NCBI GenBank assembly: GCA_964611295.1
Contig: CAZSWV010000006.1
Location: 7,571 to 71,570, forward strand
From: an uncultured Thermodesulfobacteriota bacterium
Lineage (GTDB): Bacteria; Desulfobacterota; B13-G15
DNA length: 64,000 bases
Reading direction: 5' to 3'
The notes under the pieces are model-generated. The model saw only the letters and a program-made list of their open reading frames with translations, was not told the origin of the DNA and did not search any database. A program made the position numbers and the translations under genes. Shown piece by piece: positions 17,060 through 63,831 of the stretch; position 1 is the stretch's first letter; each line of letters begins with the position of its first letter.

Positions 17060-17304
17060 GGAAAGGGCTTGGCTTCCTTGTGGAGAGGCGAAGGCTCTTA
17101 AGAGACCTCGGGCTTTTGTCCCTTTTAGGGGTTTTGGTGGTGGAGCTCTGGATTCCTTCAGAACATGGACACTTTTGGTTCGAGAGGGCCTTTGGCTTTT
17201 GGGCCCTCTTTGGGTTTGTAGGGGGATTTGTATTGGCTAAGACCTCAAAGGCCATAGCACATCTTTTACTATCCAAACCCGAGGATTTCTATGGGGAGTG
17301 GTGA
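17056..17304 (+). CDS. small 2-TM membrane protein within the nuo operon
   Basis: 82 aa, two hydrophobic segments, with ATGA-type overlaps with both neighbours. Confidence 0.35.
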   Translation: MRKGLGFLVERRRLLRDLGLLSLLGVLVVELWIPSEHGHFWFERAFGFWALFGFVGGFVLAKTSKAIAHLLLSKPEDFYGEW

Positions 17305-19051: not shown

Positions 19052-19056
19052 GGACT

Positions 19057-20532: not shown

Positions 20533-20541
20533 GGGGAGGAA

Positions 20542-39177: not shown

Positions 39178-41449
39178 GTTTTTGGGCAAACCTACTCCTC
39201 GTAAGGACGCTTTGGACATAGTCACGGGTAGGGCCAAATACCTCAACGACATAAGGCTACCCGGCATGTTGATCGGCAAGGTGTTGAGGAGCCCATACCC
39301 TCACGCCATCATAAAGGACATACGTGTGGAGAAGGCAAGGCAGCTTCCAGACGTCAAGGCCGTACTGACCTATAAGGACGTTCCGGATTGGAAGGTAGGT
39401 CTTCCGCCGCATTTGCGCGTTCTCGACAGGAAGGTGAGGTTTGTAGGGGATGCGGTGGCGCTTGTGGCAGCTGAGACCGAGGAAGCGGCTTTGGAAGCCC
39501 TTGAATTGATCGAGGTGGATTACGAAATACTTCCTGCCGTTTATGACGTAGAGGAAGCCATAAAGCCAGGGGTCCCTCAGCTTTACGAAGAGTTTCCCAA
39601 TAACCTCCTCCCCTTGGGGAATCCCTGGTTTGGTAGTCCCCAGGCCCCTGAGGGTCTAAAGGAACTCATCGTAGGGGACGTAGAGAAGGGTTTCCAGGAA
39701 GCGGATGTGGTTGTGGAGGGGACCTTCACTTATGAAAACATAACCAATCCCTTGCCGCCTGAACCGCCTGGTGTCATAGCCGCATGGGAAGACCCTCGTA
39801 CCGTTCACGTGTGGTTGACCTCGCAGGGGATCTACATAGATAAGATCAGCCTTTATTACCTCATGAAGAGACAGTATGACGTAGTGGTCCACGGTCCCCA
39901 GTGTGGCGGTAGCTACGGATCCAAGGGTACTATATTGCCCCTTGCACTTCAGGCCATCCTTTTGGCGAAGGCAGCCGGTAGGCCTGTGAAGCTCTCCTAT
40001 ACCAAAGAAGAGCACTTGACCACCTTTACCTTGAGGTTGGGTTCACGGATCCGGGGTAAAGTCGGGATGAAGAAGGACGGTACCGTTACGGCGATAGAAG
40101 GCGAGTGGTTGGTCAACACAGGCCATTATTCGGCTGTCACACAGGGACAGGTGATGGTGGGATTGGGTGAGGCACAACTTGTGATCCGCTGCAAAAATTG
40201 GCGTCTTAAGCCTAAGATCGTCTGTACCAACCGGGCCAGCTCAGGTTGGATCAGGGGGTTTGGCGGGCAAGAATTGAAGTCAGCGCTTCTCCCCCTCCTG
40301 TATGTGGCCATGGCGAAACTTGACATCGATCCAGTGGAGTTCTTCAAGAAAAACGTCATAAAGGCTGGAGAGGGGTACTTCTGGAGAGACGGACAGTGGT
40401 GGGTATCGCGGGTCATAGATTTCACAAAGGCAATAGATAAGGGGGCTGAGGCCTTTGGATGGAGGGAGAAGTGGAAGGGGTGGCTTAAGCCCACCGCTGT
40501 GAACGGTCCGAAGAGGATAGGGATAGGGGTAGGGGTCCATGGCAACGCTGACGTAGGGGAAGATGTGGCCGAGGCCTATGTCCGTTTGGATCCGGATCAA
40601 ACGGCCACCCTCTTTGTAGCCGTGCCCGAGCAAGGTGGAGGCCAGAGGAGCAACCTCTGTAAGATGGTAGCTGAGGTGCTCCAAATACCCCTTGAGCGGG
40701 TCTTTATATCCCCTGCAGACACAAACATAAACCCCTACGAATTCGGCCTTGTTGGATCGCGGGGGACCTATGCCATAGGTAGCGCTGTGATAATGGCTGC
40801 CGAGGACGCCAAAAGACAGCTTTTCGAGTTGGCTGCTGAGATGTTGAGGGTTGGCCCAGAGGAACTGGACATGAGGGACGGGATCATATACGTGAAGGGA
40901 CAACCCGACAGGCAGACCACTTGGAGGAAGGCCTTGGGGCCCATGAGGACCATAGTAGGCTATGGACGCTTTGAGCCCGATTACTCCCTTTGCAACTTCA
41001 TGATCTCCTTTGTGGAAGTGGAAGTAGATACCGAAACAGGAATGGTAGAGCTCAAGCGGGTGGTGAACGCCACAGATGTAGGCCAGATCATCGATCCCCT
41101 ATGTTTGGAAAACCAACTCAACGGGTGCCTGGGGTCTGCAGGGATTGACACTGCCCTGTTCGAGGAGACGGTACTGGATCCGAAGGTGGGCAGGATCTTG
41201 ACTACGGACCTGATCGATTACAAGTGGCGTGTATTTAAGGACCTGCCGTCCATCGAAAACGTGGTCCTTGAGACGCCTTTCCCAAGTCACCGCTTTGGGG
41301 CAGTAGGGGTAGGTGAGATCGCTACCTCTCCCGGTCCGCCGGCGGTGGTCATGGCCGTGTCCAATGCCATAGGCAAATGGCTTTTCTCCTATCCAGCCAC
41401 TCCCGATAAGGTCTTAGAAGCCTTGGGGAAGACGAAAGGAGGCCACTGA
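39161..41449 (+). CDS. xanthine dehydrogenase-family molybdopterin-binding large subunit, HcrA/CoxL-like
   Basis: 762 aa with a CoxL/XdhA-type fold (..GGSYGSKG.., GGGQRSN.., EIATSPGP). The ATG is 7 nt after AGGAGG. Confidence 0.9.
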   Translation: MGQRYRFLGKPTPRKDALDIVTGRAKYLNDIRLPGMLIGKVLRSPYPHAIIKDIRVEKARQLPDVKAVLTYKDVPDWKVGLPPHLRVLDRKVRFVGDAVALVAAETEEAALEALELIEVDYEILPAVYDVEEAIKPGVPQLYEEFPNNLLPLGNPWFGSPQAPEGLKELIVGDVEKGFQEADVVVEGTFTYENITNPLPPEPPGVIAAWEDPRTVHVWLTSQGIYIDKISLYYLMKRQYDVVVHGPQCGGSYGSKGTILPLALQAILLAKAAGRPVKLSYTKEEHLTTFTLRLGSRIRGKVGMKKDGTVTAIEGEWLVNTGHYSAVTQGQVMVGLGEAQLVIRCKNWRLKPKIVCTNRASSGWIRGFGGQELKSALLPLLYVAMAKLDIDPVEFFKKNVIKAGEGYFWRDGQWWVSRVIDFTKAIDKGAEAFGWREKWKGWLKPTAVNGPKRIGIGVGVHGNADVGEDVAEAYVRLDPDQTATLFVAVPEQGGGQRSNLCKMVAEVLQIPLERVFISPADTNINPYEFGLVGSRGTYAIGSAVIMAAEDAKRQLFELAAEMLRVGPEELDMRDGIIYVKGQPDRQTTWRKALGPMRTIVGYGRFEPDYSLCNFMISFVEVEVDTETGMVELKRVVNATDVGQIIDPLCLENQLNGCLGSAGIDTALFEETVLDPKVGRILTTDLIDYKWRVFKDLPSIENVVLETPFPSHRFGAVGVGEIATSPGPPAVVMAVSNAIGKWLFSYPATPDKVLEALGKTKGGH

Positions 41450-41451
41450 CC

Positions 41452-43827
41452 ATGAAGCCCTTTGCCCATATAAGTGCACGGAACCTCCAAGAGGCCATAG
41501 ACCTCTTGAAGGCTTACAGAGGAAAGGCCCGCGTAATAGCAGGGGGGACTGACCTGATCCCCTTGCTCAAGAGGGAATCCCTGCCCTCTTATCCAGAGGT
41601 CATCGTCGACTTAAAGCCTGTAGAGGGGTTGCAGTACATAAGGGAAGATGCCGATGGACTTAGAATAGGGGCACTTACTAAATTGAGCGAGATAGCAAAG
41701 TCCCCTATTGTCAGGGAAAAGTACAAGGCCCTTGCGGAAGCGGCAGAAGCGGTTGCCACGCCTCAGGTCCGAAATATGGGCACCATTGGCGGTAACCTGT
41801 GTCAGGACCTTCGTTGTTGGTATTACAGGTATCCGCATCAGATTGGGGGTCGGATCCTGTGCTACTTAAAAGGAGGGAGTACCTGTTATGCCCTTACTGG
41901 AGATAACCGTTACCATTCGGTTTTCGAGTGTTATAGGGACGCAAATAGGCCTTCGGCATGTGCCCTGGCATGTCGGGCAAAGGTGAGCGTGCCCTTGTAC
42001 CTCTCCAAGGTCAGGGAGGGGAAGCTTGACGAAGCAGCAGAATTGCTCCTTGAGGCCAACCCCTTGGCTCCTGTGACGGGCCGCGTTTGCCCCCATTATT
42101 GTGAGAAGGACTGCAGTAGGCTCCGTCTGGACGAACCCGTGGCCATAAGGAGCCTTGAAAGGTTTATCGGCGATTACGCTCTTGGAAAAGCAGAGAGGTT
42201 CTTCAAGGTCGAGACAAGGGATACAGGCAAGAAGGTGGCTATAGTGGGATCAGGACCTGCGGGACTTACGGCGGCTTATTACCTCAGGAAGTCAGGTCAT
42301 CAGGTGGTGGTATTTGAAAAGGAGGCAGAGCCCGGAGGGCTTTTGAAGTATGGGATACCTCCCTTCAGGTTGCCCAAGGGGGTTTTAGAGGAGGTCATCA
42401 AAGCCTTCAAGGATTTCCTAGGCGTGGAGTTCCGGTTAAAGGTCCAAATCGGCAAGGACATGACATTGAAAGACCTCATGGGGAGTTTTGATGCCGTCTT
42501 CATAGCCTCTGGGGCGTGGAAGGAAGTGAGGATGGGTATTCCAGGAGAGGAACTTTTGATGGACGGCCTCCATTTCCTTAAGGAAGTAAACTCGGGCCTG
42601 AGGGAGGCCCCAGGCCGGGAGGTAGCTGTGATCGGTGGTGGTAATGTGGCGATAGATGTAGCGAGGGTGCTCCTGAGGCTTGGGGCAAAGCCCACCGTCA
42701 TCTACAGGCGCACCGAGGACCAAATGCCTGCTTTGAAGGAGGAGGTCGAAGCGGCTAAAGAGGAAGGGGTTAAATTTGAGTTTTTGACCTTGCCCATAGA
42801 GGCGGAACGGAAGGGCGAAAAGGTACTTCTCAAATGCGTAAGGATGAAGCTTGGGGCTATCGACCATACTGGAAGGCCGGCCCCGGTACCTATTGAAGGT
42901 TCGGAGTTCACCGTGGAGTACGATGCGGTGATCAAGGCCGTTGGGGAGGCCCCAGATACTTCCTTTATCCCTGAGGTATTCCTCGATGAAAAGGGGAGGG
43001 TCAAGGTAGACGGTGTTACAGGCTTTGTAGGTGAGAACCTCTTTGCAGGGGGTGATCTCGTCACTGGTCCAGCCACCGTGGTAGAGGCCATATCGGCTGG
43101 CAAAAGGGCCGCAGTGTTCATAAACCAGTTCCTTTCCAAGGGTGAAGTAACTGTAGAAGAGCCCAAGGAAGTGCCCATTTGGGACAAGGTAAACAATGCC
43201 TGTTTGGGACCTTCGCCAAGGGTTAAGGCTGAGAAGGTCCCTGTTAGCCAAAGGGGGATTGAAGTAGAGGACGTCTTGGGGTTGGACTTAGAGGAGGTGA
43301 AGGAAGAGGCAAAAAGGTGTCTCAACTGTGGGTGTGTAGCGGTAAGTCCTTCGGATTTAGCGGTTGCCCTTATAGCCCTTGGCGCGAAGGTAAAGATAGT
43401 TGGCCCTTCAGGGGAAAGGGTGGTCCCCGTAGAGGACCTTTATGTCACCCCACGCCCCCTAATCGAGCAGGACGAACTTTTGACCGAAGTCCTAGTGCCT
43501 CCGGTGCCCGATGGGGCAAGCCAAGTATTTGTGAAATTCAGGTTGAGGAGTTCTATAGATTTTGCAATAGTTAGCGTGGCCCTTCTGTTGATCATGGAGG
43601 ACGGCATCTGTAAAGATGCAAAGGTCGTTCTAGGTGGGGTTTCTCCACGGCCGATCCGCGCATCCCTAGCGGAAGAGGCCTTAAAGGGCAGATCTCTCAC
43701 GCCTGAGTCCATAGAGGCCGCTTCCCAAGCTGCTGTTAAAGAGGCGGTGCCCTTGAGCATGAACGCCTATAAAGTCGAACTCACAAAGACGTTGCTTAAG
43801 CGAGCCCTTGAAACGATACGGGGGTAA
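41452..43827 (+). CDS. xanthine dehydrogenase-family FAD-binding medium subunit (CoxM/HcrB-like) carrying an inserted GltD-like NAD(P)H:FAD/[4Fe-4S] module
   Basis: N-terminal FAD_binding_5 region up to GTIGGNLCQDLRC. It is followed by GltD/PreT motifs GRVCPHYCEKDC, VAIVGSGPAGLTAAYYL (FAD) and VAVIGGGNVAIDVARV (NADPH). A CLNCGC follows, then the CoxM C-terminal domain. Total 791 aa. Confidence 0.75.
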   Translation: MKPFAHISARNLQEAIDLLKAYRGKARVIAGGTDLIPLLKRESLPSYPEVIVDLKPVEGLQYIREDADGLRIGALTKLSEIAKSPIVREKYKALAEAAEAVATPQVRNMGTIGGNLCQDLRCWYYRYPHQIGGRILCYLKGGSTCYALTGDNRYHSVFECYRDANRPSACALACRAKVSVPLYLSKVREGKLDEAAELLLEANPLAPVTGRVCPHYCEKDCSRLRLDEPVAIRSLERFIGDYALGKAERFFKVETRDTGKKVAIVGSGPAGLTAAYYLRKSGHQVVVFEKEAEPGGLLKYGIPPFRLPKGVLEEVIKAFKDFLGVEFRLKVQIGKDMTLKDLMGSFDAVFIASGAWKEVRMGIPGEELLMDGLHFLKEVNSGLREAPGREVAVIGGGNVAIDVARVLLRLGAKPTVIYRRTEDQMPALKEEVEAAKEEGVKFEFLTLPIEAERKGEKVLLKCVRMKLGAIDHTGRPAPVPIEGSEFTVEYDAVIKAVGEAPDTSFIPEVFLDEKGRVKVDGVTGFVGENLFAGGDLVTGPATVVEAISAGKRAAVFINQFLSKGEVTVEEPKEVPIWDKVNNACLGPSPRVKAEKVPVSQRGIEVEDVLGLDLEEVKEEAKRCLNCGCVAVSPSDLAVALIALGAKVKIVGPSGERVVPVEDLYVTPRPLIEQDELLTEVLVPPVPDGASQVFVKFRLRSSIDFAIVSVALLLIMEDGICKDAKVVLGGVSPRPIRASLAEEALKGRSLTPESIEAASQAAVKEAVPLSMNAYKVELTKTLLKRALETIRG

Positions 43828-43900
43828 TGCCTCTGTTTTGCCTTTATCCCATGTCGAAAGGGTTGCTAATTCCAACGGCGTTGTTGTATGAATTTAAGAT

Positions 43901-45355
43901 ATGAAGCCTAAGACAAAAGAGAAGCTCCTTGAGGGCATCCTAAAGACCGGCCTTTTGTTCTTAGACGTAAGTTTGTTAAGGGGTCTCCTCATAAAGAAGA
44001 TGGAGGGGTATCTGTGGCGTAGGATCGTTGAAGAGGCTTTTGATGCCATACGGCCTGCTCAAGAACTGAAGTTTTATTTTGTAAGGAACTTGTTGCGCAC
44101 GACTGACAGACATCTGCGCAAAGGTTGGTTGAGCAAAGAGGTGTTTCACAAGATGGTGCGGGTTTTTGCCCGTGGTGTCCTTATGGAGGACATAGAGTAC
44201 CGAGAAAGGAAGCAAGAAGAAGGCGATCCGGCTACCCCCTCCTTTGTGGTCATAAGCCCTACCCAGGCCTGTAACTTAAGGTGTCCGGGTTGTTATGCCT
44301 TGAGCGAACCGACAAGGACCTTTTCCTTGCCTTATTCGGTGGTAAGTCGCATCATTGCGGAAAAGACCAGGTTCTGGCACTCACACTTTACGGTGGTGTC
44401 GGGTGGTGAGCCCTTTTTATGGAAGAGCGAAGGCAAGGACATCATAGACCTTGCCCGGGAGCACAACGATAATTTCTTCATGGTTTATACCAACGGGACC
44501 CTTATAGACGAAAGGGTAGCAGAGAGGTTAAGAGAGGTAGGTAATTTCACCCCTGTTATATCCGTAGAGGGTTTCGAAGAGAACACCGATAGGCGTAGGG
44601 GCAGAGGTACTTTTAAAAAGGTACTGAGGGCCTTTAAAGTCCTGAGGGACTACGGGGTTCCCTTCGGGATATCGGTTGTGGCCGAAAAACACAACTGGGA
44701 AGAAGTCACCAGTTGGGAGTTCTTGCGCTTCTTCTTCGACCAAGAGGGCGCCTTTTATGGGTGGCTGTTCCAATATATGCCGATAGGGCGAGGATATACC
44801 CTTCAGGCCATGGTGGGACCTGAAGAAAGGCTCGAAATGCTGAAGAGGAACATCGAGGCCATAAAGGCAGGCTATAACTACATCGATTTTTGGAACCAAG
44901 GACCAATGACCGACGGTTGCCTTGCAGGGGGTAGATCAGGTGGATATCTTTACATAGATTGGAAGGGCGATGTAATGCCTTGCGTTTTTATACCTTATAG
45001 GCAAGACAACATTTTGGAAGTGTACAACCGAGGTGGGACGCTTGAGGACGTCCTTTATTCGGGCTTCTTTAAAAGGATAAGGCACTGGCAACGCGAATAC
45101 GCCCTGAAAAAACCCGCATCTCAAAGGGGCAACCTCACCATGCCGTGCCCTATGAGGGATCATCACCAGTTCATGTGGGGCGTGTTGAAGGAACTTGTGG
45201 TCCAGCCCACTGACGAGGCAGCTCAGGAGGCTTTAAACGACGAAGCCTATCACATGGGGTTGATCGAATATGACCTCAGGCTCAAAGAGCTCCTTGATCC
45301 TGTTTGGGAAAAGGAATTCAAGGGCAAATCGGTCTTTCCCACGGAAGGGAGTTGA
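43901..45355 (+). CDS. radical SAM enzyme (unknown function) with a roughly 120-aa N-terminal extension
   Basis: CNLRCPGCYA (CxxxCxxC) and a GGEP-like SGGEPFLW. Additional C-terminal Cys residues (GCLAGG, PCVF, PCPM) could form an auxiliary cluster. Confidence 0.8.
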   Translation: MKPKTKEKLLEGILKTGLLFLDVSLLRGLLIKKMEGYLWRRIVEEAFDAIRPAQELKFYFVRNLLRTTDRHLRKGWLSKEVFHKMVRVFARGVLMEDIEYRERKQEEGDPATPSFVVISPTQACNLRCPGCYALSEPTRTFSLPYSVVSRIIAEKTRFWHSHFTVVSGGEPFLWKSEGKDIIDLAREHNDNFFMVYTNGTLIDERVAERLREVGNFTPVISVEGFEENTDRRRGRGTFKKVLRAFKVLRDYGVPFGISVVAEKHNWEEVTSWEFLRFFFDQEGAFYGWLFQYMPIGRGYTLQAMVGPEERLEMLKRNIEAIKAGYNYIDFWNQGPMTDGCLAGGRSGGYLYIDWKGDVMPCVFIPYRQDNILEVYNRGGTLEDVLYSGFFKRIRHWQREYALKKPASQRGNLTMPCPMRDHHQFMWGVLKELVVQPTDEAAQEALNDEAYHMGLIEYDLRLKELLDPVWEKEFKGKSVFPTEGS

Positions 45356-57067: not shown

Positions 57068-57097
57068 TTGACAATTTTAAGGCCCATGTGGGATATT
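57068..57097 (+). promoter_or_regulatory. weak candidate promoter for the OTase gene
   Basis: TTGACA at 57068-57073 and GATATT at 57092-57097 with an 18-nt spacer. This would make the ATG at 57107 nearly leaderless. Confidence 0.25.
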
Positions 57098-57106
57098 AAC
57101 GGAAAA

Positions 57107-59119
57107 ATGAAACGGCCTTTTTTAGTTGCGCTTGTCCTCTTTGGTTTATGTTTTGCCTTTAAGCTCTACCAGGCCAGATGGATCTTCCAGCATAAGCCCT
57201 TTTACTTTACCAAGGACGGTACCCCAGTGCTCACAGAGGCAGATGGCTATTATTTCCTCAGGCTTGGAGAGCTCATAGCGGAGGGGCAGTACCGTCCAGG
57301 GGCACCCGATCCCCTAAGGAACGCTCCTGACAACCAAAGGCCCCTAGAAAGCAAAAAGGTCCCTCTGCCCTTTCTTCCTCCCCTTTTGAGCTTCCTTTTG
57401 GCAGTGACGAAGTGGCTTACAGGTAAAGACATAGAGAGGGCTTTTTTGGCCTTTCCTTTGATCCCCTTCCTTTCCTCCCTTCAGGTCTTTCCCATGTTTT
57501 ACCTTGGGAGAAGGCTTGGGGGGAACCTCTTAGGTGTGGGGCTTGCCCTTGGTGCATCTTTTTCCTTGGAGTACCTCATAAGGACGGACATCTTAAGGCT
57601 CGATACCGATGCCTTGAACCTCTTTTTCCTCTTTTCGGTAGCCCTTTTGCTCTTAAGGCTCCTTGACCGTTGGTCCTTTAAGGACCTGATAGGTCTGAGC
57701 ATAATGGTGCATCTCTTCCAGTTGTGGTATGCCCATCCTGGGCTCCTCATACCCCTTTTTGCCTTTTTCGCCCTCTCTTTGCTCCTTAAGGAGAAGGACC
57801 TGGGAGTTACCCTCAAGAGGACAGCCCTTGTGCTGTTTTTTTCCAACCCCTTTATCCTTTACCAGGGCCTTTTTAACCTCTTGGACCTATTCAAGGGCTA
57901 CATCCCGGGCCTCATAAAGGAAGAAAACCCCTTTATCCCCAGGGCTGTTTTTGCCCAATCTGTAAGCGAGCTTCAGAAACTCAGCCCTGAAAGGGTCTTC
58001 CGAATGACAGCTGTCCATCCCTTTTTGGGTTACCTAAGCCTTCTAGGGCTGTTTGTGCTCTACCTGAGGGAAAGGCGTGCCCTTTTGCTTTTCCCCCTCA
58101 TGCTCTTGGGGATGATGTCCCTTTTTGGGGCAAGGCGTTTCATGGTCTACTTGGGCCCCTTTGTCGGCCTTGGGCTTGGTGTCCTAGTCCAAGTGGTCTT
58201 TGAAATTACGAGGAAGCGATACGAAAAAGCGCCCCTTTTCCCTTTGGAGCTAGGCCTCGGTGTGCTTTTGTTCCTCTCCGTAATACACCCCAGTCGTTTC
58301 GCCATAAGGCCCCTTCCGCCCATAACCCCTGGTTTGATGGAGGGGATAAAGCTCTTAAAGGAGATAGCCCCAGAGGGGTGTTTTGTCTGGTCGTGGTGGG
58401 ATTACGGTTACCCCATAGCACAGGGCTCCAAACGGGCCGTCTACCATGACGGGGGTAGTTGGGGAGGGCCGAAGAGCCTACTTGTGGCAAGGAGCTTTGT
58501 ATTACCTCCTTTTAAGGCCTATAACGTGGTCAACGGGACTACTGCCCTTGGAGAGGAGGGGATAAGGGAGCTGTTGAAGGGGGGCAAAAGCCCAGGGGAG
58601 ATCCTCAGGGAAGTAGAGGAAGGGAGGCACAACCGTCCTCTTAAGGAGAAAGTGTACCTCCTTTTTTCAGGACTTGACGTGAGGAAGTTCTACTGGATCT
58701 CCTTTTTCGGGACATGGGACCCTGACAGGCGCCAAGGCCTACACCTCTTCTACCTCCCTTTGGGGCTCTGCCAAGAAACCCCCCAAGGCTTTATGTGCCA
58801 GCGGGGTTCTGTGGACCTAAAAAAGGGCCTTGCAGAGGAGATGGAATCAGGAGTCCTATCCATAGGTAGGGTGGAAAAGGTGAGACTTTCCACAGATGAT
58901 AGGTTTTTGTCAAAAGAGATCCTAAGGGAGGGAGAGGGGGTGTTATTCTTCCTTGTGGAGAAGGAGGGGAGGCTTTTTGGCTTTTTGGCCCACCCTATGG
59001 TCCAGAAGACTACCTTTCACAAGTTGTTTTTCGAAGCGGAAGAGGGCCTTTTTAAGCTTGTGCTTTCTGATTTTCCGAGGTTCAGGATATACGAAGTCTT
59101 AGGTGAAAATCTTCCTTGA
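57107..59119 (+). CDS. STT3/AglB/PglB-family oligosaccharyltransferase
   Basis: The WWDYGY catalytic motif lies in SWWDYGYPIAQ, followed by DGGSW. A DK-type motif LDVRKFYWI (DxxKxxxI) is present. The EL1 motif TEADGYYFLR resembles Stt3 E-x-D-x-W/Y-F/Y-x-x-R, and there are about 11-13 N-terminal TM segments. Alternative upstream starts are TTG 57068 and ATG 57086. Confidence 0.7.
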   Translation: MKRPFLVALVLFGLCFAFKLYQARWIFQHKPFYFTKDGTPVLTEADGYYFLRLGELIAEGQYRPGAPDPLRNAPDNQRPLESKKVPLPFLPPLLSFLLAVTKWLTGKDIERAFLAFPLIPFLSSLQVFPMFYLGRRLGGNLLGVGLALGASFSLEYLIRTDILRLDTDALNLFFLFSVALLLLRLLDRWSFKDLIGLSIMVHLFQLWYAHPGLLIPLFAFFALSLLLKEKDLGVTLKRTALVLFFSNPFILYQGLFNLLDLFKGYIPGLIKEENPFIPRAVFAQSVSELQKLSPERVFRMTAVHPFLGYLSLLGLFVLYLRERRALLLFPLMLLGMMSLFGARRFMVYLGPFVGLGLGVLVQVVFEITRKRYEKAPLFPLELGLGVLLFLSVIHPSRFAIRPLPPITPGLMEGIKLLKEIAPEGCFVWSWWDYGYPIAQGSKRAVYHDGGSWGGPKSLLVARSFVLPPFKAYNVVNGTTALGEEGIRELLKGGKSPGEILREVEEGRHNRPLKEKVYLLFSGLDVRKFYWISFFGTWDPDRRQGLHLFYLPLGLCQETPQGFMCQRGSVDLKKGLAEEMESGVLSIGRVEKVRLSTDDRFLSKEILREGEGVLFFLVEKEGRLFGFLAHPMVQKTTFHKLFFEAEEGLFKLVLSDFPRFRIYEVLGENLP

Positions 59120-59145
59120 CACCAAAGGGCTTTGTGGCATTAAAT
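59116..59145 (+). promoter_or_regulatory. candidate promoter for the pilin gene
   Basis: TTGACA at 59116-59121 overlapping the OTase stop, an 18-nt spacer, then TTAAAT at 59140-59145. The pilin RBS is AAAGGAGGG. Confidence 0.4.
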
Positions 59146-59186
59146 AGCTGTGTGGTTTTTTTAAAAAACTCGAAAGGAGGGTTGTC

Positions 59187-59693
59187 ATGGTTCTAAGGTG
59201 TCTTAAGCGGAAGCTACGAAGTAAGAAGGGTTTTACTTTAATCGAACTTATGATCGTTGTGGCTATTATAGGGATTTTGGCAGCAATAGCTATACCTACT
59301 TACATGGATTATACTGTAAGGGCCAAGGTTTCTGAAGCGGTTAGCCTTCTAGCAGGATATGCCACAGCAGCTGCCGAGTATCATAATTCATACGGTAATT
59401 TCACACGAGACATCAGCGCATTTGGAGAATCAAAAACAAGCAAATATGTAAGCAATGTTACAATTGGTGATCTTAACAAGTGTGATGTAAAGGAGCCTGA
59501 TGCTATATGCTTTGTGGCCACTTTGCAGGGTATATCAAGTGATGTCAACGGCAAGAAAATTGGTCTGGAGGTTTACTACAACTCTCAAAATGGAACATAC
59601 GATAAATGCTATGATTGGAACTTGGATAAAGTAAAATATATTCCATCCAGTGTCCGCCAGAGACAATGCCAAAATGATGACGCAGCAGGTTAA
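59187..59693 (+). CDS. type IV (major) pilin, class III signal peptide
   Basis: Leader [15 protein letters not shown], then [22 protein letters not shown] with Glu at +5. C-terminal Cys pairs are present. The gene is visibly more A/T-rich than its neighbours. Confidence 0.85.
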
Positions 59694-59710
59694 GGGTACT
59701 GATTATCTCG

Positions 59711-60127
59711 ATGGGTAAAGGGCTTACTTTGCTGGAGGTTATGATTGTTGTAGTGATCGTAGGTATCCTTGCAGCCATTGCCATTCCTTCTTATACCCAT
59801 TATGTGAAGAGGGCCAGGAGGGCTGATGCCATGAATGCCCTCTTGGCCCTCCATGCGGCCCAGGAGTCTTACAAGGCCGAGCATGGGCGGTATGGTGACT
59901 TTGGCGAACTATCAGGTTGTTCCCCAAATATGGCGGGTGAGAACTATATGATAAGCCTTAACCTTTCTGATAACCGCACGTCTTACAACGCCACTGCCAT
60001 CCCTCAGGGCAGGCAGAAGGGCGACTACTGTCTAAGGATAGATCAGGACGGTAAGCAGTACTATGCCCCTTCTTCGGACGGAGGATGTGGAACTTTTACT
60101 GAGAAGAAGTTTTCCGAGTTAAGGTAG
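59711..60127 (+). CDS. type IV pilin-like protein (minor pilin/pseudopilin)
   Basis: MGKG, then [22 protein letters not shown] with Glu at +5. C-terminal Cys pair C...C. Confidence 0.75.
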   Translation: MGKGLTLLEVMIVVVIVGILAAIAIPSYTHYVKRARRADAMNALLALHAAQESYKAEHGRYGDFGELSGCSPNMAGENYMISLNLSDNRTSYNATAIPQGRQKGDYCLRIDQDGKQYYAPSSDGGCGTFTEKKFSELR

Positions 60128-60198
60128 TCCTCTTTAGGTTGCCTTCCTTCCCCTTTAGGTGTAACCTTAACTTAGGACCTAAAAGAGGTTGGGGAGAG

Positions 60199-61533
60199 AT
60201 GACAACAGGTGATGGCTACCAAGAAAAGGTAAGGCGTATCTATCGTTTCATAAGCGAGAACTTCTACCTGAACAGGCCTGACCTTGAGATAAAAGGGGAA
60301 AGGTACAACTCTGCCCTCCTTTTCGGGATACTCACTGCCCTTTATGGTGGCAAAGAACTGATAATAGGGGAGCCAGGCCTCGGTAAGACTACAAGCGCCG
60401 AGTACATAGGATGCTTAATTTACCGCTATCCCCTTGGGGTCATATGGGGGAGCGAAGTCTCAGGGCACCCCGAACAGACGGAGGAAAAGATCGTGGGAAG
60501 GCCTGATCTTGGGGCCTTGAACCAGGGACGAGAGGTGGTGGTCTGGAGCAACTTCGTGCAACTGCCTGTGAAGATCGTGGACGAGATAAACCGCCTGCCT
60601 GAGACCAAACAGTCCATGATCCTTGACGGGGTCGACCGCGGCAATTGGGAGTATCTCAACGAAATGATAATCAACGACGAGTACGTGCTTTTTGCCACCG
60701 CCAACTACCAAGACCGCGGGACCAATACCATAATCGCGCCCTTGGTAGACAGGTTTGACGTACTTGTCGAATCAAGACATCCAGGGCCAAACCTCGCCTT
60801 CCAGATCGGCAGGCGTTCGAAGCTGTATAACCCCCTGCGGCATCCGGAGTTCGAAAGGAAGTTCCATGAGCTTTTGAGGTCGCAGGTGCCATATGAGGAA
60901 AAGGTCCCAAGGCTTGAAGAACTATGTGAGGCCTATGGCCAGTACCTCAAAGAGAAGGTAGGCATCGAAGGCCTAAGCAAGGAGGAAAGGTTCGAAATAA
61001 GGAAGCAGATCGCCTCCATACCCCTTGACCTCGATTCGAACGCCTTCCTGAGGATGGTCCTTGCCGAATTCTCCTTCTGTCACCGTTATGGGCAGAAGAG
61101 GAGTGTCGAGCAGTGCCAGGAAGGGTGCCACTACACGGGTTATTTCTGCTACCATGTGAAAAACTGTGCCTCCAACCGCCTCCCCATCTCAGCAGTAGGG
61201 TATGCACAAGCCCTGGCCTGGTTCCTGGAGGAGGATGAGGTAGACCTCGAACACGTAAAGGCAGTCCTACCCTTTGTCTTGGCCCATAGGGTCCAGTGGA
61301 AGGACTCTTACATATCCAAGAAGGAAAGCGAGGGCAGGAACGACCCCTTACAGATATACCTTGCCAAGGAAGCCGTAGAGGAGATCTTCCACCGCTATAA
61401 CGAGCAGCGGGATTACCTCTTGGAAGCCCTGGCCGTTGCCTCTGAGGCCTTTGAGGGGCGGGAGGTGCAGCTACTGGACGGTGACCATCCCATATACGAA
61501 GAGATAAAGAAGGAGATAGCGGCCTTAAGATGA
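60199..61533 (+). CDS. MoxR-family AAA+ ATPase with a Cys/His-rich C-terminal insertion
   Basis: Walker A GEPGLGKTT and Walker B VDEINRL, with a MoxR-like sensor region. It also carries CHRYGQKRSVEQCQEGCHYTGYFCYHVKNC. The start was set to the ATG at 60199. Confidence 0.8.
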   Translation: MTTGDGYQEKVRRIYRFISENFYLNRPDLEIKGERYNSALLFGILTALYGGKELIIGEPGLGKTTSAEYIGCLIYRYPLGVIWGSEVSGHPEQTEEKIVGRPDLGALNQGREVVVWSNFVQLPVKIVDEINRLPETKQSMILDGVDRGNWEYLNEMIINDEYVLFATANYQDRGTNTIIAPLVDRFDVLVESRHPGPNLAFQIGRRSKLYNPLRHPEFERKFHELLRSQVPYEEKVPRLEELCEAYGQYLKEKVGIEGLSKEERFEIRKQIASIPLDLDSNAFLRMVLAEFSFCHRYGQKRSVEQCQEGCHYTGYFCYHVKNCASNRLPISAVGYAQALAWFLEEDEVDLEHVKAVLPFVLAHRVQWKDSYISKKESEGRNDPLQIYLAKEAVEEIFHRYNEQRDYLLEALAVASEAFEGREVQLLDGDHPIYEEIKKEIAALR

Positions 61534-62234
61534 AGAACCCTTTTGAAGAGTTCAAGAGGCATCCGAGTAAGGAGAGGTCAAAGGAGATCCCCCTTGACAG
61601 GATCCTGCGCCAGAAAGAAGAGACCTTACAGAGGATCCTTCGGGGTTATGAGAACCTTTTGAAGAACGAGGCGAAGGATTTGGTGTGGCTCATGCAGTAC
61701 AGTACGGTCATCAAGGCCTATAGCATCGCCGAAGAGGCCATAAGGGACATAGAGTACACAGCCGAAGACATAGAGGAATTTTGCTATGCCCTCGATAGGA
61801 CCGATCAGATCCCCTATCTGATCACTGGGCCTGCAGGGGTCTACATATCGGCGCTTTGTAACTACGCAAAGGAGTCCGAGATCGTCTTAAGGCTCCAGGA
61901 CCTGGGGATAAAGATAAACCTTTTGGGCTACAGGCTCCCCGAAGGGAAAAGGCTCATCGTGGAAGGGAACCTTGGGGACTTCACCGGTATAAGCCTTGAA
62001 GGGGGCGAACTGATCGTTGAAGGCAGCACCAAGAACTACACGGGTGCGGGTATGAAGAGGGGGAGGATAATAGTCAGGAACAACGCAGGGTTCAACACCG
62101 GTCATGGGATGACTGGAGGGGAAATCCTAGTAGGGGGGAGGATAAAGGGTCTCGGGAAGATCGTAGGCGGTAAGATTTACGAGAAGGACCAATTGATCTT
62201 CCCAAGTGAGGATTACAGGCCCTTCTATTTCTAG
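61530..62234 (+). CDS. GXGXG-repeat beta-helix protein (GltB domain-3 / FwdC-like)
   Basis: Tandem repeats GNLGDFTGISLEGGELIVEGSTKNYTGAGMKRGRIIVRNNAGFNTGHGMTGGEILVGGRIKG are typical of glutamate-synthase domain-3 / FwdC-like folds. Confidence 0.6.
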   Translation: MKNPFEEFKRHPSKERSKEIPLDRILRQKEETLQRILRGYENLLKNEAKDLVWLMQYSTVIKAYSIAEEAIRDIEYTAEDIEEFCYALDRTDQIPYLITGPAGVYISALCNYAKESEIVLRLQDLGIKINLLGYRLPEGKRLIVEGNLGDFTGISLEGGELIVEGSTKNYTGAGMKRGRIIVRNNAGFNTGHGMTGGEILVGGRIKGLGKIVGGKIYEKDQLIFPSEDYRPFYF

Positions 62235-62237
62235 GCC

Positions 62238-63797
62238 ATGGACAGGGAAGAACTGCTGAAAAAGATCTGGCCAAAGGTCAGGAAAAAGCACCTTTACCCG
62301 CAGTTGCCCATGCCCGAGTTTGTGGAGGGGGAAGAACTTGTCGGCCTTGAAATGAAAAGCAAAAAGCTCCAGTTGAACACCGCCTTCTTGGACCTCATGA
62401 AGGAAAAGATGGCAGAGGAAGATGTGCTTGAAGCCTTGCTAGACCACGGGATATCCCATTACATGTTCTGTCCTTGGGACTTTGAGACCCACTTGGTGCT
62501 TTACAGTGAGGCCAAAAAGGTCTTAAAGGACAAGAGGCTTGCCCAGAAGGCTGCCTCCTACTTCATGGACGTTGTGGCCAACACTTACTGCGTAAGGGAA
62601 AAGGAGACCAAGATCCCTGAACTCTACCGCAACCTCCCCAAACAAGGCATCCACAGGCTCATGGCCATGCTCTATCAGGTCATATGGGGGGTGGAGCTTG
62701 GGGTGGAGGGTGAAGACGAAAGGGTAAAACGTTTGGCGCGTATCCCTTATTTGGACAAGAGGCTTTGGAAGGAAAGCGTGAGGAAGTTCGCCAAGGCCTT
62801 AGAGGAGCTCTTACAAGAAGAGGCCCAAAACGAGCAGAAACAGAACCAGAAGATGCCCAATCCCTTGGGAGAGCATTCCCTGGAGAACTACACCTTGGAA
62901 GAGATAGACAGGGGCATAAGGAACTTCGCCACTTCGGTTGAAGACATCCAACAGTTCCGCGAGGCCATTGAGGACTTCAAAGAAGAACTAAGCGCCATGG
63001 GATACTCCACAGGCGGTATAGGCCGCGGCCGCGGTAACCCTGTGGATGCTGACCTTTTGTACTACATGAAGCTTGCCGAAAACTACACCCTCCCCATCAA
63101 GAAGTTGCCCATGCAGAAAAGCGGGGCCCTTCATCCCTATTCCCACTCGCCCTGGGAGATCGGTAAACCCACCCAGGACATTGATCCCTGGACGAGCTTT
63201 GGCAAGATCATGCCAGGACTCACCCAGACGTGGGTGAGGAGGGAAGGGGAGGTCTTTGGCGAAGCGGAGGCCATCCCCGATTGCCTCGTCATAATAGATT
63301 CTTCTGGCAGTATGACCAATCCTAGGGAAAAGCTCTCCTATGCTGTCCTTGGGGCTGCATGTGCGTGTAATGCCTATTTGAAAAACGACAGGAGGGTGGC
63401 CGTCTATAACTTCTCTGATGCCTTCAGGGGAAACAAGGTCCTCCTTGAGTTTTCAAGGGAGAAGGAGGCCATCTATCAAGCCATATGTAGGTACTTTGGC
63501 GGTGGCACGGCCCTTGACCTCAACGATATCCTGTACCTGCTTAAAAAGGCCGAAAAGCCCGATATATTCATCATAACCGACATGCAGATCACCAACCTCG
63601 AAAAGCTCATAGAGTTCTTCAACGGGATCGACAACCGGGTGACGGCGGTGCACATCGGGGAGAACATCTATGCCTCGCGTTTCCGCGAAGGGATAAAGCA
63701 GAAGAAGAACATCTCCCTGTTCATGGTCAAGGACAAGGAGGACATCCCCAAGATAGTCCTGGGGAAGGTGAGGGAATACTTCGGTTTGCCCTTCTAA
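62238..63797 (+). CDS. von Willebrand factor A (VWA) domain protein with a roughly 300-aa N-terminal domain
   Basis: MIDAS motif DCLVIIDSSGSM...T...D in the C-terminal third. Confidence 0.75.
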   Translation: MDREELLKKIWPKVRKKHLYPQLPMPEFVEGEELVGLEMKSKKLQLNTAFLDLMKEKMAEEDVLEALLDHGISHYMFCPWDFETHLVLYSEAKKVLKDKRLAQKAASYFMDVVANTYCVREKETKIPELYRNLPKQGIHRLMAMLYQVIWGVELGVEGEDERVKRLARIPYLDKRLWKESVRKFAKALEELLQEEAQNEQKQNQKMPNPLGEHSLENYTLEEIDRGIRNFATSVEDIQQFREAIEDFKEELSAMGYSTGGIGRGRGNPVDADLLYYMKLAENYTLPIKKLPMQKSGALHPYSHSPWEIGKPTQDIDPWTSFGKIMPGLTQTWVRREGEVFGEAEAIPDCLVIIDSSGSMTNPREKLSYAVLGAACACNAYLKNDRRVAVYNFSDAFRGNKVLLEFSREKEAIYQAICRYFGGGTALDLNDILYLLKKAEKPDIFIITDMQITNLEKLIEFFNGIDNRVTAVHIGENIYASRFREGIKQKKNISLFMVKDKEDIPKIVLGKVREYFGLPF

Positions 63798-63802
63798 AGA
63801 AG

Positions 63803-63831
63803 TTGACACCCCTATAGGTGGGGCTTATTTT
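63803..63831 (+). promoter_or_regulatory. candidate promoter for lon
   Basis: TTGACA at 63803-63808, a 17-nt spacer, then TATTTT at 63826-63831. Confidence 0.45.

What the first reader, a model, noticed from the sequence alone, without database searches (positions are those of the whole stretch)
60199..63797. MoxR AAA+ ATPase, GXGXG beta-helix protein and VWA protein, tightly linked
MoxR-VWA pairs are known metal-cofactor insertion/remodelling chaperones, for example CoxD/E, NorQ/D and CbbQ/O. Here a glutamate-synthase domain-3 / FwdC-like GXGXG beta-helix protein is wedged between them. The junctions are ATGA at 61530-61533 and a 3-nt gap at 62234-62238. The MoxR additionally carries a Cys/His-rich insertion, CHRYG..CQEGCHYTGYFCYHVKNC, that looks metal-binding. 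The VWA protein has a large unassigned roughly 300-aa N-terminal domain. The trio may be a dedicated maturation or activation machine for an unidentified client. It lies immediately downstream of the OTase/pilin genes and 16 kb from the molybdoenzyme operon.
Basis: partly seen in the sequence, partly recalled or inferred. Interest (0 to 1): 0.55.

Follow-up and report, generated by a model that had tools for sequence, protein, structure and literature searches.

The report
Conserved AAA+, beta-helix, VWA machine
Three tightly packed genes encode an undescribed ATP-driven protein-remodelling machine: a MoxR-like motor, a small beta-helix adaptor and a VWA protein carrying a disabled zinc-protease domain; it is shared by many uncultured bacteria and archaea, and its target is unknown.

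Summary
Three co-oriented genes (60199-61533, 61530-62234, 62238-63797) encode three proteins:
- a MoxR/ChlI-clade AAA+ ATPase with a Cys4-His insertion;
- a 234-aa protein with a helical N-domain and a FwdC-like GXGXG beta-helix;
- a 519-aa protein with a C-terminal VWA domain and a complete MIDAS site.

The order AAA+, GX, VWA is kept wherever contigs allow in 80 species-level genome loci, essentially all uncultured Thermodesulfobacteriota. It recurs in 30 of 49 judgeable remote metagenome loci. GX also occurs downstream of VWA, as several paralogues in archaeal MAGs, and fused to the AAA+ C-terminus.

The "unassigned" VWA N-domain is zincin-like. Relatives carry HExxH; here it is HGxxH, so the catalytic Glu is lost.

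Flanking genes differ between clades and are housekeeping. Neither the pilin/OTase genes nor the molybdoenzyme are conserved partners.

Best reading: a self-contained, non-proteolytic MoxR-VWA-type remodelling machine with a beta-helix third subunit. It probably derives from an ATP-dependent zincin protease. The client is unknown and unlinked. No curated family or paper describes it. It is a new variant of a known kind.

The parts
60199..61533 (+). AAA+ ATPase gene (444 aa) of the MoxR/ChlI (helix-2-insert) clade; the motor subunit
   Evidence: Pfam AAA_lid_2 and AAA_5. A broad profile hits the MoxR structure 2r44 at E 7e-7, then BchI/ChlI. 937 homologues were found, the listed best 120 at 63-96% identity.
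60367..60393 (+). Walker A motif GEPGLGKTT
   Evidence: Invariant in alignment A2; coordinates verified by translation.
60571..60594 (+). Walker B motif KIVDEINR. Sensor 1 (ATANY, N169) and the Arg finger (DRF, R185) follow it.
   Evidence: Invariant in A2 and in remote homologues.
61078..61167 (+). Cys/His insertion C294-x11-C306-x3-C310-H311-x5-C317-x5-C323 in the lid domain, just before sensor 2 (SNR, R327); a predicted metal site
   Evidence: Invariant in A2. The first four Cys and the His are kept in Woesearchaeota and other remote homologues but lost in L089 and L093. Against 2r44 the segment is an insertion next to the GASTRA sensor-2 motif.
61530..62234 (+). GX gene (234 aa): the third subunit or adaptor. 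It overlaps the AAA+ stop codon by 4 nt (ATGA).
   Evidence: 412 homologues, the listed best 120 at 58-98% identity. Always between the AAA+ and VWA genes in 80 genome loci. Fused to the AAA+ C-terminus in L101 and L102.
61536..61553 (+). Conserved N-proximal acidic-aromatic motif NPFEEF of the GX protein
   Evidence: N3, P4 and F5 are invariant and F8 nearly so in A1. The motif is kept as NPFADF and NPFAEF in orthologues of 37-39% identity (L086, L091). A role as a MIDAS or pore ligand is inference only.
61878..62201 (+). FwdC/GltS-type right-handed GXGXG beta-helix (residues 117-224). It is preceded by a four-helix N-domain (residues 21-112).
   Evidence: AF2 model with pLDDT 81. Foldseek gives FwdC 5t61 and 5t5i at probability 0.97. 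The family profile hits FwdC chains at E 1e-14.
62238..62987 (+). Zincin-like N-terminal domain of the VWA protein (residues 1-250); a pseudo-peptidase
   Evidence: AF2 pLDDT is 80-94 with a helix, three strands and then helices. The family profile hits the minigluzincin selecase MJ1213 at E 0.015 over the strand plus HExxH helix. Remote members give weak hits to Peptidase_M48, DUF2268, BSP and SprT.
62442..62483 (+). Degenerate active-site motif DHGISHYMFCPWDF (H70-G71-x-x-H74). Relatives have HExxH.
   Evidence: Position 71 is E in 40 of 49 family representatives and invariant in the 35 remote ones. It is G or A only in the clade containing the window. The candidate third ligand D111 (D in 38, E in 9) and N115 are conserved.
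63006..63278 (+). Conserved linker (residues 257-347) between the zincin-like and VWA domains, predicted to be disordered
   Evidence: pLDDT is 22-48, yet many residues are invariant (G260-G266, Y276, M277, K278, W306, E307, W318-K323). The motif is still recognisable in 25%-identity relatives. It is inferred to fold on a partner, like the NorD linker and finger (PMC13036017).
63279..63797 (+). VWA domain (residues 348-519) with a complete MIDAS site: D354-S-S356-G-S358, T424, D448
   Evidence: Pfam VWA_2. Foldseek gives vWF-A3, Rpn10 and integrin I-domains at probability 1.0. The MIDAS pentad DSSTD is present in 46 of 49 representatives and in nearly all remote loci.
63803..63831 (+). Sigma-70-like promoter of the downstream lon gene (ATG at 63865); marks the 3' boundary of the trio
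   Evidence: TTGACA-17-TATTTT. The lon N-terminus was read from the sequence and confirmed in L001.

Best explanation
The three genes encode one self-contained, ATP-driven protein-remodelling machine of the MoxR-VWA type with an extra subunit.

(1) The AAA+ protein is a catalytically competent MoxR/ChlI-clade ATPase and presumably forms a hexamer. It carries a Cys4-His metal site in its lid next to sensor 2.

(2) The GX protein (helical domain plus FwdC-like beta-helix) is a stably associated adaptor or scaffold. It sits at the C-terminal face of the ATPase.

(3) The VWA protein is the substrate-engaging arm. Its intact MIDAS would grip an acidic residue. The long, conserved, unstructured linker is the likely element that the ATPase pulls or twists, as in NorQ-NorD. 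The N-terminal zincin-like domain has lost its catalytic Glu (HGxxH) and now acts as a non-cleaving binding or metal-holding module.

The ancestral form is still seen in Woesearchaeota, Marsarchaeota and other lineages with an intact HExxH. It was probably an ATP-dependent, MIDAS-gated metalloprotease. In the window's clade it has become a non-proteolytic chaperone or remodeller. Its client is encoded elsewhere in the genome.

Shown: gene content, motifs, co-conservation, the fusion, and loss of the Glu. Inferred: the assembly, the force-transmission route, the non-proteolytic role, and a constitutive housekeeping function.
For: Co-conservation:
- Order and tight spacing are kept wherever contigs allow in 80 species-level genome loci.
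- In remote metagenome loci, 45 of 49 judgeable AAA+ genes have the zincin-VWA partner. Thirty have GX in between, 3 have GX downstream and 2 have an AAA+::GX fusion.
- Archaeal MAG loci carry two or three GX paralogues.
- The fusion ORFs in L101 and L102 come from two different samples. In them the AAA+ covers residues 1-435 and GX covers 452-602.

Functional motifs:
- Walker A and B, sensor 1, the Arg finger and sensor 2 are all conserved.
- The MIDAS pentad DxSxS-T-D is essentially invariant across the whole superfamily.

Zincin origin and Glu loss:
- The motif is HExxH in 40 of 49 representatives, but HG/HA or H[IL] in GX-bearing clades.
- The family profile hits selecase, and the AF2 secondary structure agrees.

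No conserved client, and a housekeeping setting:
- Flanks include xseA, ispA, dxs, tlyA, yicC, gmk, rpoZ and lon, and they differ between clades.
- All three proteins remain 55-65% identical across the clade.

Not mobile and not a known defence system:
- There are no PADLOC hits.
- There are no matches in plasmid or phage collections.

Mechanistic paradigm: in NorQ-NorD, a VWA finger enters the AAA+ pore, the linker is remodelled, and client carboxylates are required (PMC9976466, PMC13036017).
Against: - No biochemical or structural data exist for any member, and every carrier identified is an uncultured MAG or metagenome contig.
- The complex and its stoichiometry are inferred from synteny and a single fusion lineage.
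- The zincin assignment rests on a motif, predicted secondary structure and a marginal profile hit (E 0.015). Foldseek could not test it because the VWA domain dominated the hit list.
- About 10 of 49 remote loci have no detectable GX, so GX is not indispensable to the core pair.
- The two His, D111 and clade-specific D69, C78, H85 and C118 are conserved around the dead active site. This could mean a metal-handling function rather than mere peptide binding.
Confidence: 0.6

Rival explanations
1. It is a metal-cofactor insertion chaperone in the strict NorQD/CoxDE/chelatase sense. The remodelled His2-Asp(-Cys) site of the dead zincin domain, perhaps with the Cys4-His site of the ATPase, holds a metal ion. 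ATP hydrolysis delivers that ion into a metalloenzyme client.
For: - Several characterised MoxR-VWA pairs insert metals (PMC13036017 and PMC9976466 for NorQD; CoxD/E and class I chelatases from established knowledge).
- The metal-ligand-type residues H70, H74 and D111 are retained after loss of the catalytic Glu. The clade also gains invariant D69, C78, H85 and C118.
- There are weak NCBIfam similarities to ChlD and cobaltochelatase, and BchI/ChlI are the second-closest structures.
- A cobW-family GTPase lies next to the VWA gene in L086.
- The window organism encodes several molybdoenzymes.
Against: - No metalloenzyme or metal-transport gene is a conserved neighbour in any clade.
- The molybdoenzyme 16 kb away is not co-conserved.
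- No ChlH/CobN-like subunit is present.
- The Cys cluster is dispensable in some lineages.
- Relatives with an intact HExxH look like proteases, not metallochaperones.
Confidence: 0.2
2. The GX beta-helix protein is not a subunit but the substrate. The AAA+/VWA(-zincin) pair would assemble, disassemble or process beta-solenoid GX proteins, for example a polymer or scaffold.
For: - Archaeal loci carry 2-3 GX paralogues with very regular 21-residue coils and variable length (L093, L092).
- GX position and copy number vary.
- GX has a conserved N-proximal acidic-aromatic motif (NPFEEF) that could serve as a MIDAS or pore ligand.
Against: - The in-frame fusion of GX to the AAA+ C-terminus points to a permanent partner rather than a turnover substrate.
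- In the window clade there is a single GX gene with translational coupling (ATGA overlap).
- GX is the least conserved of the three between clades but is strongly conserved within each, as expected of a co-evolving subunit.
Confidence: 0.12
3. It is still an active ATP-dependent metalloprotease. Another residue (for example D69 or D81) would replace the lost Glu as the general base.
For: - The family is ancestrally HExxH.
- H70, H74 and D111 are retained.
- D69 immediately precedes the first His and is invariant in the clade.
Against: - Replacing the zincin catalytic Glu normally abolishes activity (established enzymology).
- In a third clade the Glu is Leu or Ile and even the second His becomes Gln or Arg. 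This shows that catalysis is dispensable in GX-bearing systems.
Confidence: 0.05
4. It is an anti-phage or conflict system of the vWA-MoxR ternary type, or the GX ORF is a fragment of a split glutamate synthase or Fwd enzyme.
For: MoxR-vWA pairs with a variable third component are known conflict systems (PMC7159879). GX has FwdC/GltS-type repeats.
Against: - There are no PADLOC hits.
- There is no VMAP, iSTAND, FtsH or beta-propeller component and no C-terminal effector on the vWA protein.
- Distribution follows clades, with housekeeping synteny and high conservation.
- The module is absent from plasmids and phages.
- No gltB or fwdA/B/D genes are adjacent, and scores fall below the FwdC cutoffs.
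Confidence: 0.03

Closest known systems
NorQ-NorD (also CbbQ-CbbO, CoxD-CoxE, RavA-ViaA): MoxR AAA+ plus VWA chaperone pairs
   Same: - An adjacent MoxR-clade AAA+ and a VWA protein with a functional MIDAS.
- The VWA protein has an N-terminal domain, a linker and a C-terminal VWA domain.
- The likely mechanism is the same: one VWA protein on a hexamer, with the linker or finger pulled or twisted (PMC9976466, PMC13036017).
   Different: - The AAA+ is too divergent to pass any curated MoxR-subfamily model (AAA_3 scores 15.8 against a cutoff of 27) and carries a Cys4-His insertion.
- The VWA partner's N-domain is zincin-like.
- There is a third, beta-helix subunit.
- No client gene is linked, whereas nor, cbb and cox clusters encode theirs.
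FtsH and other AAA+ zincin proteases
   Same: An AAA+ motor is combined with an HExxH zincin domain. In the HExxH-bearing relatives this probably amounts to ATP-dependent proteolysis.
   Different: - Motor and peptidase lie on separate polypeptides bridged by a VWA/MIDAS domain.
- The AAA+ belongs to the MoxR clade, not the classical clade.
- There is no membrane anchor.
- In the window the catalytic Glu is lost.
FwdC and the glutamate synthase C-terminal (GXGXG) beta-helix domain
   Same: The GXGXG right-handed beta-helix is homologous (profile E 1e-14; Foldseek probability 0.97).
   Different: - It is shorter and is preceded by a family-specific helical domain.
- It is never next to FwdA/B/D or GltS domains.
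- It scores below the FwdC and Pfam thresholds.
- It partners with an AAA+ and a VWA protein and is sometimes fused to the AAA+.
Minigluzincins (selecase MJ1213); DUF2201_N/DUF2201 zincin-VWA-like proteins; eukaryotic CLCA (zincin plus VWA)
   Same: A small zincin module with a strand (xIxIN) followed by the HExxH helix. The architecture is zincin followed by VWA, as in CLCA and DUF2201 proteins. Two remote members hit DUF2201 weakly.
   Different: - No Pfam or NCBIfam model recognises the N-domain.
- The selecase hit is marginal (E 0.015).
- CLCA proteins are secreted self-cleaving proteins with no AAA+ partner.
- The DUF2201_N comparison comes from recalled knowledge and was not tested by profile-profile comparison.
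vWA-MoxR ternary conflict systems (VMAP, iSTAND, FtsH and beta-propeller types; Kaur et al. 2020)
   Same: The logic is three-component: a MoxR-vWA core plus a third protein that varies between lineages.
   Different: - The third component and the vWA architecture are different.
- There are no effector domains.
- The phyletic pattern is housekeeping-like, and PADLOC gives no hits.

Membership tests
MoxR-family AAA+ ATPase | Complete AAA+ catalytic motifs: Walker A, Walker B, sensor 1, Arg finger and sensor 2 | tested here: met
   GEPGLGKTT, KIVDEINR, ATANY, DRF and SNR are invariant in A2 and kept in remote homologues.
MoxR-family AAA+ ATPase | Passes curated family models (Pfam AAA_3 for MoxR proper; AAA_5 for the CbbQ/NorQ/dynein-like group; AAA_lid_2) | tested here: inconclusive
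   AAA_3 scores 15.8, below its cutoff of 27, so it is not met. AAA_5 scores 23.0 against 22, a marginal pass. AAA_lid_2 scores 33.8 against 22.7, a pass. NCBIfam has no model for it.
MoxR-family AAA+ ATPase | The closest solved structures are MoxR or Mg-chelatase-I clade members | tested here: met
   The broad profile A6 hits 2r44 at E 7e-7 and then BchI/ChlI at 1.7e-4 to 2.5e-3. The narrow profile A2 gives only E 0.04.
MoxR-family AAA+ ATPase | Helix-2 insert, pre-sensor-1 hairpin and hexameric ring | not testable with these tools
The EQTEEKIVGRPDLG segment after strand 2 resembles the AAA_5 H2-insert region by eye only.
MoxR-family AAA+ ATPase | An adjacent VWA-domain partner gene | tested here: met
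   The partner is present wherever contigs allow in the 80 genome loci, and in 45 of 49 judgeable remote loci.
VWA domain with MIDAS | DxSxS...T...D metal-ion-dependent adhesion site and the Rossmann-like VWA fold | tested here: met
   D354, S356, S358, T424 and D448 are present. VWA_2 scores 27.3 against 27. Foldseek gives probability 1.0 to vWF-A3, Rpn10 and integrin I-domains.
Zincin (gluzincin-type) metallopeptidase | HExxH motif with the catalytic Glu | tested here: not met
   The window protein has H70-G71-I-S-H74. The Glu is present in 40 of 49 family representatives and in all 35 remote ones.
Zincin (gluzincin-type) metallopeptidase | Zincin fold: an edge strand before the active-site helix and a third ligand on a following helix | tested here: inconclusive
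   - The AF2 model shows strands 27-47, helix 60-76 and helix 99-121 carrying D111 and N115.
- The family profile hits selecase MJ1213 at E 0.015.
- Foldseek was uninformative because the VWA domain dominated.
FwdC / glutamate synthase domain 3 (GXGXG) | Passes the curated models (Pfam GXGXG; NCBIfam FwdC equivalogs) | tested here: not met
   GXGXG scores 24.7, below 32.5. TIGR03122 scores 45.3, below 130.65. NF042910 scores 42.7, below 340. Beta-helix homology itself is supported.
FwdC / glutamate synthase domain 3 (GXGXG) | Encoded with FwdA/B/D, or with GltS amidotransferase and FMN domains | tested here: not met
   None of these appears in any of about 160 loci examined. GX is always with the AAA+ and VWA genes.
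vWA-MoxR ternary conflict systems | A VMAP, iSTAND, FtsH or beta-propeller third component, and effector domains C-terminal to the vWA domain | tested here: not met
   The domain content differs, and PADLOC gives no hit.
Class I metal chelatase (ChlI/ChlD/ChlH, CobS/T/N) | A large ChlH/CobN subunit and a ChlD-type AAA-like domain fused to the VWA domain | tested here: not met
   No such gene lies in the flanks. The VWA N-domain is zincin-like. Only weak sub-threshold ChlD and Cob hits were found.

The most novel reading that the evidence does not exclude
The trio represents an ancient, undescribed class of split AAA+ protease shared by DPANN and other archaea and by uncultured bacteria. It has a MoxR-clade motor, a beta-helix adaptor and a zincin peptidase tethered through a MIDAS-bearing VWA domain. 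The class has been converted into pseudoprotease chaperones at least twice or three times, as shown by loss of the catalytic Glu, almost only in lineages that carry the beta-helix subunit.
Probability: 0.3. Interest if true: 0.75.

Novelty: new variant of a known kind. Interest (0 to 1): 0.58.

Why it matters
MoxR-VWA systems are widespread, but only a handful have known clients or mechanisms.

This module adds two elements not previously linked to them in the searched literature. One is a FwdC-type beta-helix subunit, which would give the enigmatic GXGXG domain a role outside GltS and Fwd. The other is a zincin domain that is active-looking in some lineages and dead in others.

The module is strongly conserved in a large uncultured branch of Thermodesulfobacteriota. 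It is also retained in small-genome DPANN archaea, which suggests a basic proteostasis or maturation function.

It offers a natural series (protease-competent, pseudoprotease, fused and unfused) for dissecting how MoxR motors transmit force through VWA partners.

Tried and rejected
- **Client search by neighbourhood.** I clustered all ORFs within ±10 kb in 80 genome loci and within ±8 kb in 77 metagenome loci. Only the trio is conserved across clades. Clade-specific neighbours are housekeeping genes or sugar-metabolism genes.
- **Pilin or OTase link.** Prepilin-like ORFs occur near the trio in only about 4 distinct loci, so I rejected this link.
- **Lon link.** Lon is downstream in only about 15 loci of one subclade and has its own promoter, so I rejected this link too.
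- **Defence system.** PADLOC gave nothing. Plasmid and phage tblastn searches gave nothing.
- **L084 "GX-DnaE fusion".** This is an assembly chimera, not a real architecture.
- **Foldseek of the full VWA model.** It returned only VWA-domain hits, and the N-domain could not be searched separately.
- **Sequence and profile searches of the clade-level VWA family.** The PDB search found nothing. Pfam found no N-domain family.
- **Metagenome scan with the 35-sequence remote VWA alignment.** I replaced it with the AAA+ alignment A6.
- **Literature.** No paper in the searchable library combines MoxR or VWA with GXGXG or FwdC, and none describes DUF2201-type systems functionally.
- **A simple rule that GX is present if and only if the Glu is lost.** This is not strict. 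Seven GX-bearing lineages keep HExxH, and one GX-less locus (L131) has HG.

Full report
**1. The observation**

The window contains three co-oriented ORFs at 60139/60199-61533, 61530-62234 and 62238-63797.
- The ATG at 60199 is preceded by GGAGAG.
- The first junction is an ATGA stop/start overlap. The second is TAG-GCC-ATG, a 3-nt gap.
- Downstream, a sigma-70-like promoter (63803-63831) precedes lon (ATG at 63865).
- Upstream are an STT3/PglB-like oligosaccharyltransferase and two type IV pilins.

Single-sequence Pfam calls hover around their thresholds: AAA_lid_2 33.8 bits, AAA_5 23.0, GXGXG 24.7 (below 32.5) and VWA_2 27.3. Family profiles and models confirm them:
- The GX family profile hits FwdC structures at E 1e-14.
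- The GX AF2 model (pLDDT 81) has a four-helix N-domain and a beta-helix. Its best Foldseek matches are FwdC at probability 0.97.
- The VWA model matches vWF-A3, Rpn10 and integrin I-domains at probability 1.0.
- A broad AAA+ profile hits the MoxR structure 2r44 at E 7e-7, then BchI/ChlI.

**2. Co-conservation in the window's clade**

Each protein has hundreds of homologues. The listed best 120 are 55-100% identical, and all named ones come from uncultured Deltaproteobacteria or Thermodesulfobacteriota MAGs. They are named only "hypothetical", "AAA family ATPase" or "VWA domain-containing".

A scan of one genome per GTDB species found 81 relatives of the GX protein. All are MAGs and almost all are Thermodesulfobacteriota. 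Every locus with enough sequence has the order AAA+, GX, VWA on one strand. The exceptions are contig ends (L029, L082), one locus with no VWA ORF detected for an unexamined reason (L018), and one chimeric contig (L084).

I clustered all flanking ORFs. Nothing else is conserved across the set.
- In the Syntrophaceae-like subclade the trio follows xseA, ispA, dxs, tlyA, yicC, gmk, rpoZ and an HD-domain gene.
- In the window's subclade lon follows it.
- Pilin genes are nearby in only about four distinct loci.
- The xanthine-dehydrogenase-type molybdoenzyme 16 kb upstream has no counterpart in other loci.

So the trio is a unit, but its neighbourhood does not name a client.

**3. The VWA protein**

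The C-terminal domain has a complete MIDAS site: D354-S-S356-G-S358, T424 and D448.

The N-terminal 250 residues are predicted with high confidence (pLDDT 80-94). They form a helix, three strands and a helical bundle. Helix 60-76 carries D69-H70-G71-I-S-H74.

An exhaustive search of 1.84 billion representative proteins with residues 1-330 found 235 clusters, nearly all 500-560 aa. The whole architecture is therefore conserved down to about 25% identity. Named members come from Woesearchaeota, Marsarchaeota, a Hydrothermarchaeota bin, WOR-3 and Chloroflexota.

In this wider family the motif is HExxH:
- E is at position 71 in 40 of 49 representatives and is invariant in the 35 remote ones.
- A conserved P lies five residues after the second His.
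- A conserved D/E111 and N115 lie on the next long helix.

A profile of the N-domains hits the minimal gluzincin selecase (MJ1213) at E 0.015. The match spans the xIxIN strand and the HExxH helix. Individual remote members give weak hits to Peptidase_M48, DUF2268, BSP and SprT, and to DUF2201 for the VWA part.

I conclude that the "unassigned" domain is zincin-like and that in the window protein its catalytic Glu has been replaced by Gly.

The 90-residue linker (257-347) is predicted to be disordered, yet it is among the most conserved segments. That pattern is typical of a segment that folds on a partner.

**4. The AAA+**

All catalytic motifs are intact.

The Cys cluster C294-x11-C306-x3-C310-H311-x5-C317(-x5-C323) lies in the lid domain. 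Relative to 2r44 it is an insertion immediately before the sensor-2 motif. It is conserved in Woesearchaeota and other remote homologues but absent from L089 and L093. This favours a structural or regulatory metal site, most simply Zn, over an indispensable cofactor. The identity of the metal is an inference.

The protein does not reach the MoxR-proper model (AAA_3 scores 15.8 against a cutoff of 27), and NCBIfam has no model for it.

**5. The triad outside the clade**

Individual look-ups gave these arrangements:
- AAA+, VWA without GX: a Woesearchaeota MAG (L085) and L087.
- AAA+, GX, VWA in more distant bacteria: L086, L088, and L091, which lies on a 5 Mb, 63% GC contig.
- AAA+, an unrelated 219-aa gene, VWA: L089.
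- AAA+, GX, GX, VWA, GX: a Marsarchaeota MAG (L093).
- AAA+, VWA, GX ... GX: another Woesearchaeota contig (L092).

A metagenome scan seeded with the remote AAA+ alignment returned 77 loci. HMM searches of their ORFs gave these counts for the 49 judgeable loci:

| Arrangement | Loci |
|---|---|
| AAA+, GX, VWA | 30 |
| GX downstream of VWA | 3 |
| AAA+::GX fusion, then VWA | 2 |
| AAA+ and VWA adjacent, no GX | 8 |
| Another gene between AAA+ and VWA, no GX hit | 2 |
| No VWA partner in the flank | 4 |

In total, 45 of the 49 have the zincin-VWA partner.

The fusion is a continuous 620-aa ORF seen on contigs from two different samples. The AAA+ covers residues 1-435 and GX covers 452-602. This is Rosetta-stone evidence that GX works physically with the ATPase, at its C-terminal end.

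MIDAS is DSSTD in essentially every member. The zincin motif varies:
- GX-less loci almost all keep HExxH.
- GX-bearing lineages include HExxH (seven lineages), HG/HAxxH (the window's superclade) and H[LI]xxH or H-L-x-x-Q/R (a large clade from anaerobic digesters).
- Two related loci (L122, L123) lack even the first His.

The catalytic Glu has therefore been lost at least two or three times, almost only where GX is present. The association is not strict and has not been corrected for phylogeny.

**6. Mechanism**

The best-supported reading is a three-subunit MoxR-VWA-type remodelling machine.
- The ATPase provides force.
- The VWA protein engages an acidic residue of a target through MIDAS. 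The motor acts on it through its conserved linker. This follows the NorQ-NorD paradigm, in which a VWA finger enters the pore, a linker is remodelled and client carboxylates are needed (PMC9976466, PMC13036017).
- The dead zincin domain supplies a peptide- or metal-binding groove.
- GX is a scaffold or adaptor bound to the ATPase.

The HExxH-bearing archaeal relatives suggest the ancestral activity was ATP-dependent, MIDAS-gated proteolysis. The window's version is non-proteolytic.

Several points argue for a constitutive cellular function with an unlinked client, and against a conflict system:
- All three proteins stay 55-65% identical across the clade.
- The synteny is with housekeeping genes.
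- The module is absent from plasmids and phages.
- PADLOC gives no hits.

What is shown: composition, motifs, co-inheritance, the fusion, and loss of the Glu. What is inferred: the assembly, the force path, the non-proteolytic role, and the nature of the client.

**7. Rivals**

H70, H74 and D111 are retained, and D69, C78, H85 and C118 are gained around the dead site. No linked metalloenzyme supports it.
- *GX as substrate rather than subunit.* Archaeal paralogue arrays and the conserved NPFEEF motif suggest it. The fusion and the translational coupling argue against it.
- *Residual protease activity.* This is unlikely given the L/I and Q/R substitutions in a sister clade.
- *Defence system, or a split GltS/Fwd fragment.* Both are effectively excluded.

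**8. Comparison with known systems, and novelty**

It works like NorQD, CbbQO and CoxDE, and it belongs to the MoxR/ChlI AAA+ clade and the VWA superfamily. It is not a member of any curated subfamily, and it fails the FwdC, AAA_3 and zincin-motif membership tests.

The vWA-MoxR ternary systems of Kaur et al. (PMC7159879) share only the three-component logic. I found no paper linking MoxR or VWA with GXGXG or FwdC.

I rate it a new variant of a known kind, with interest about 0.58. The interest comes from an uncharacterised triad spanning two domains of life, a new context for the GXGXG beta-helix, and recurrent conversion of a protease into a pseudoprotease.

Noticed in passing
window 57068-60127: An STT3/PglB-like oligosaccharyltransferase (683 aa) is directly followed by two type IV pilin genes (168 aa with a Pilin domain; 138 aa ComP_DUS-like). 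This suggests N-linked pilin glycosylation by a PglB-type enzyme. The arrangement is conserved in the same organism's contigs L001-L003.
   Followed up: partly
window 39161-45355: A xanthine-dehydrogenase-family molybdoenzyme (762 aa) is followed by an unusual 791-aa fusion and then a radical SAM protein. The fusion joins the CODH-type FAD-binding domain with a GltD/dihydropyrimidine-dehydrogenase-like Fe-S/FAD reductase module.
   Followed up: no
L101:2-1879 and L102:1730-3592: Natural in-frame fusion of the AAA+ ATPase with a short GX beta-helix protein (620 aa), seen on contigs from two different metagenome samples. L169:7911-9119 looks like a decayed AAA+ (no Walker A) with GX-like coils at its C-terminus.
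   Followed up: partly
L093:3274-7431 (Marsarchaeota MAG): Three paralogous GX-like proteins flank the VWA gene. They have extremely regular 21-residue coils (SGSASLTINGPAGNYAGxGM) and different coil numbers. A 1023-aa protein with no Pfam hit follows.
   Followed up: partly
L089:3154-6080: In place of GX, two paralogous proteins of 219 and 223 aa flank the VWA gene. Both start MPIERFGTFKRIE and are unrelated to GX. This points to alternative third components in some lineages.
   Followed up: no
L092:6538-11545 (Woesearchaeota contig): Downstream of the AAA+ and VWA genes is a run of nine tightly packed small genes without Pfam hits. Two of them are GX-like. This may be a larger operon.
   Followed up: no
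L084: A contig binned as Dehalococcoidia carries the AAA+ and then an ORF in which the first ~113 residues of GX continue into a DnaE fragment. This is most likely an assembly chimera or mis-binning.
   Followed up: yes
L059 and L062: Two contigs of the same MAG (binchicken_co274_204) each carry a copy of the trio. This indicates either two paralogous copies or a strain mixture in the bin.
   Followed up: no
L086:7663-8802: A cobW-family metallochaperone GTPase lies convergent to the VWA gene in a distant deltaproteobacterial locus. A PAS-GGDEF gene is inserted between GX and VWA on the opposite strand.
   Followed up: no
window 17291-21930: Three consecutive Proton_antipo_M (Nuo L/M/N or Mrp-type) membrane subunit genes.
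   Followed up: no
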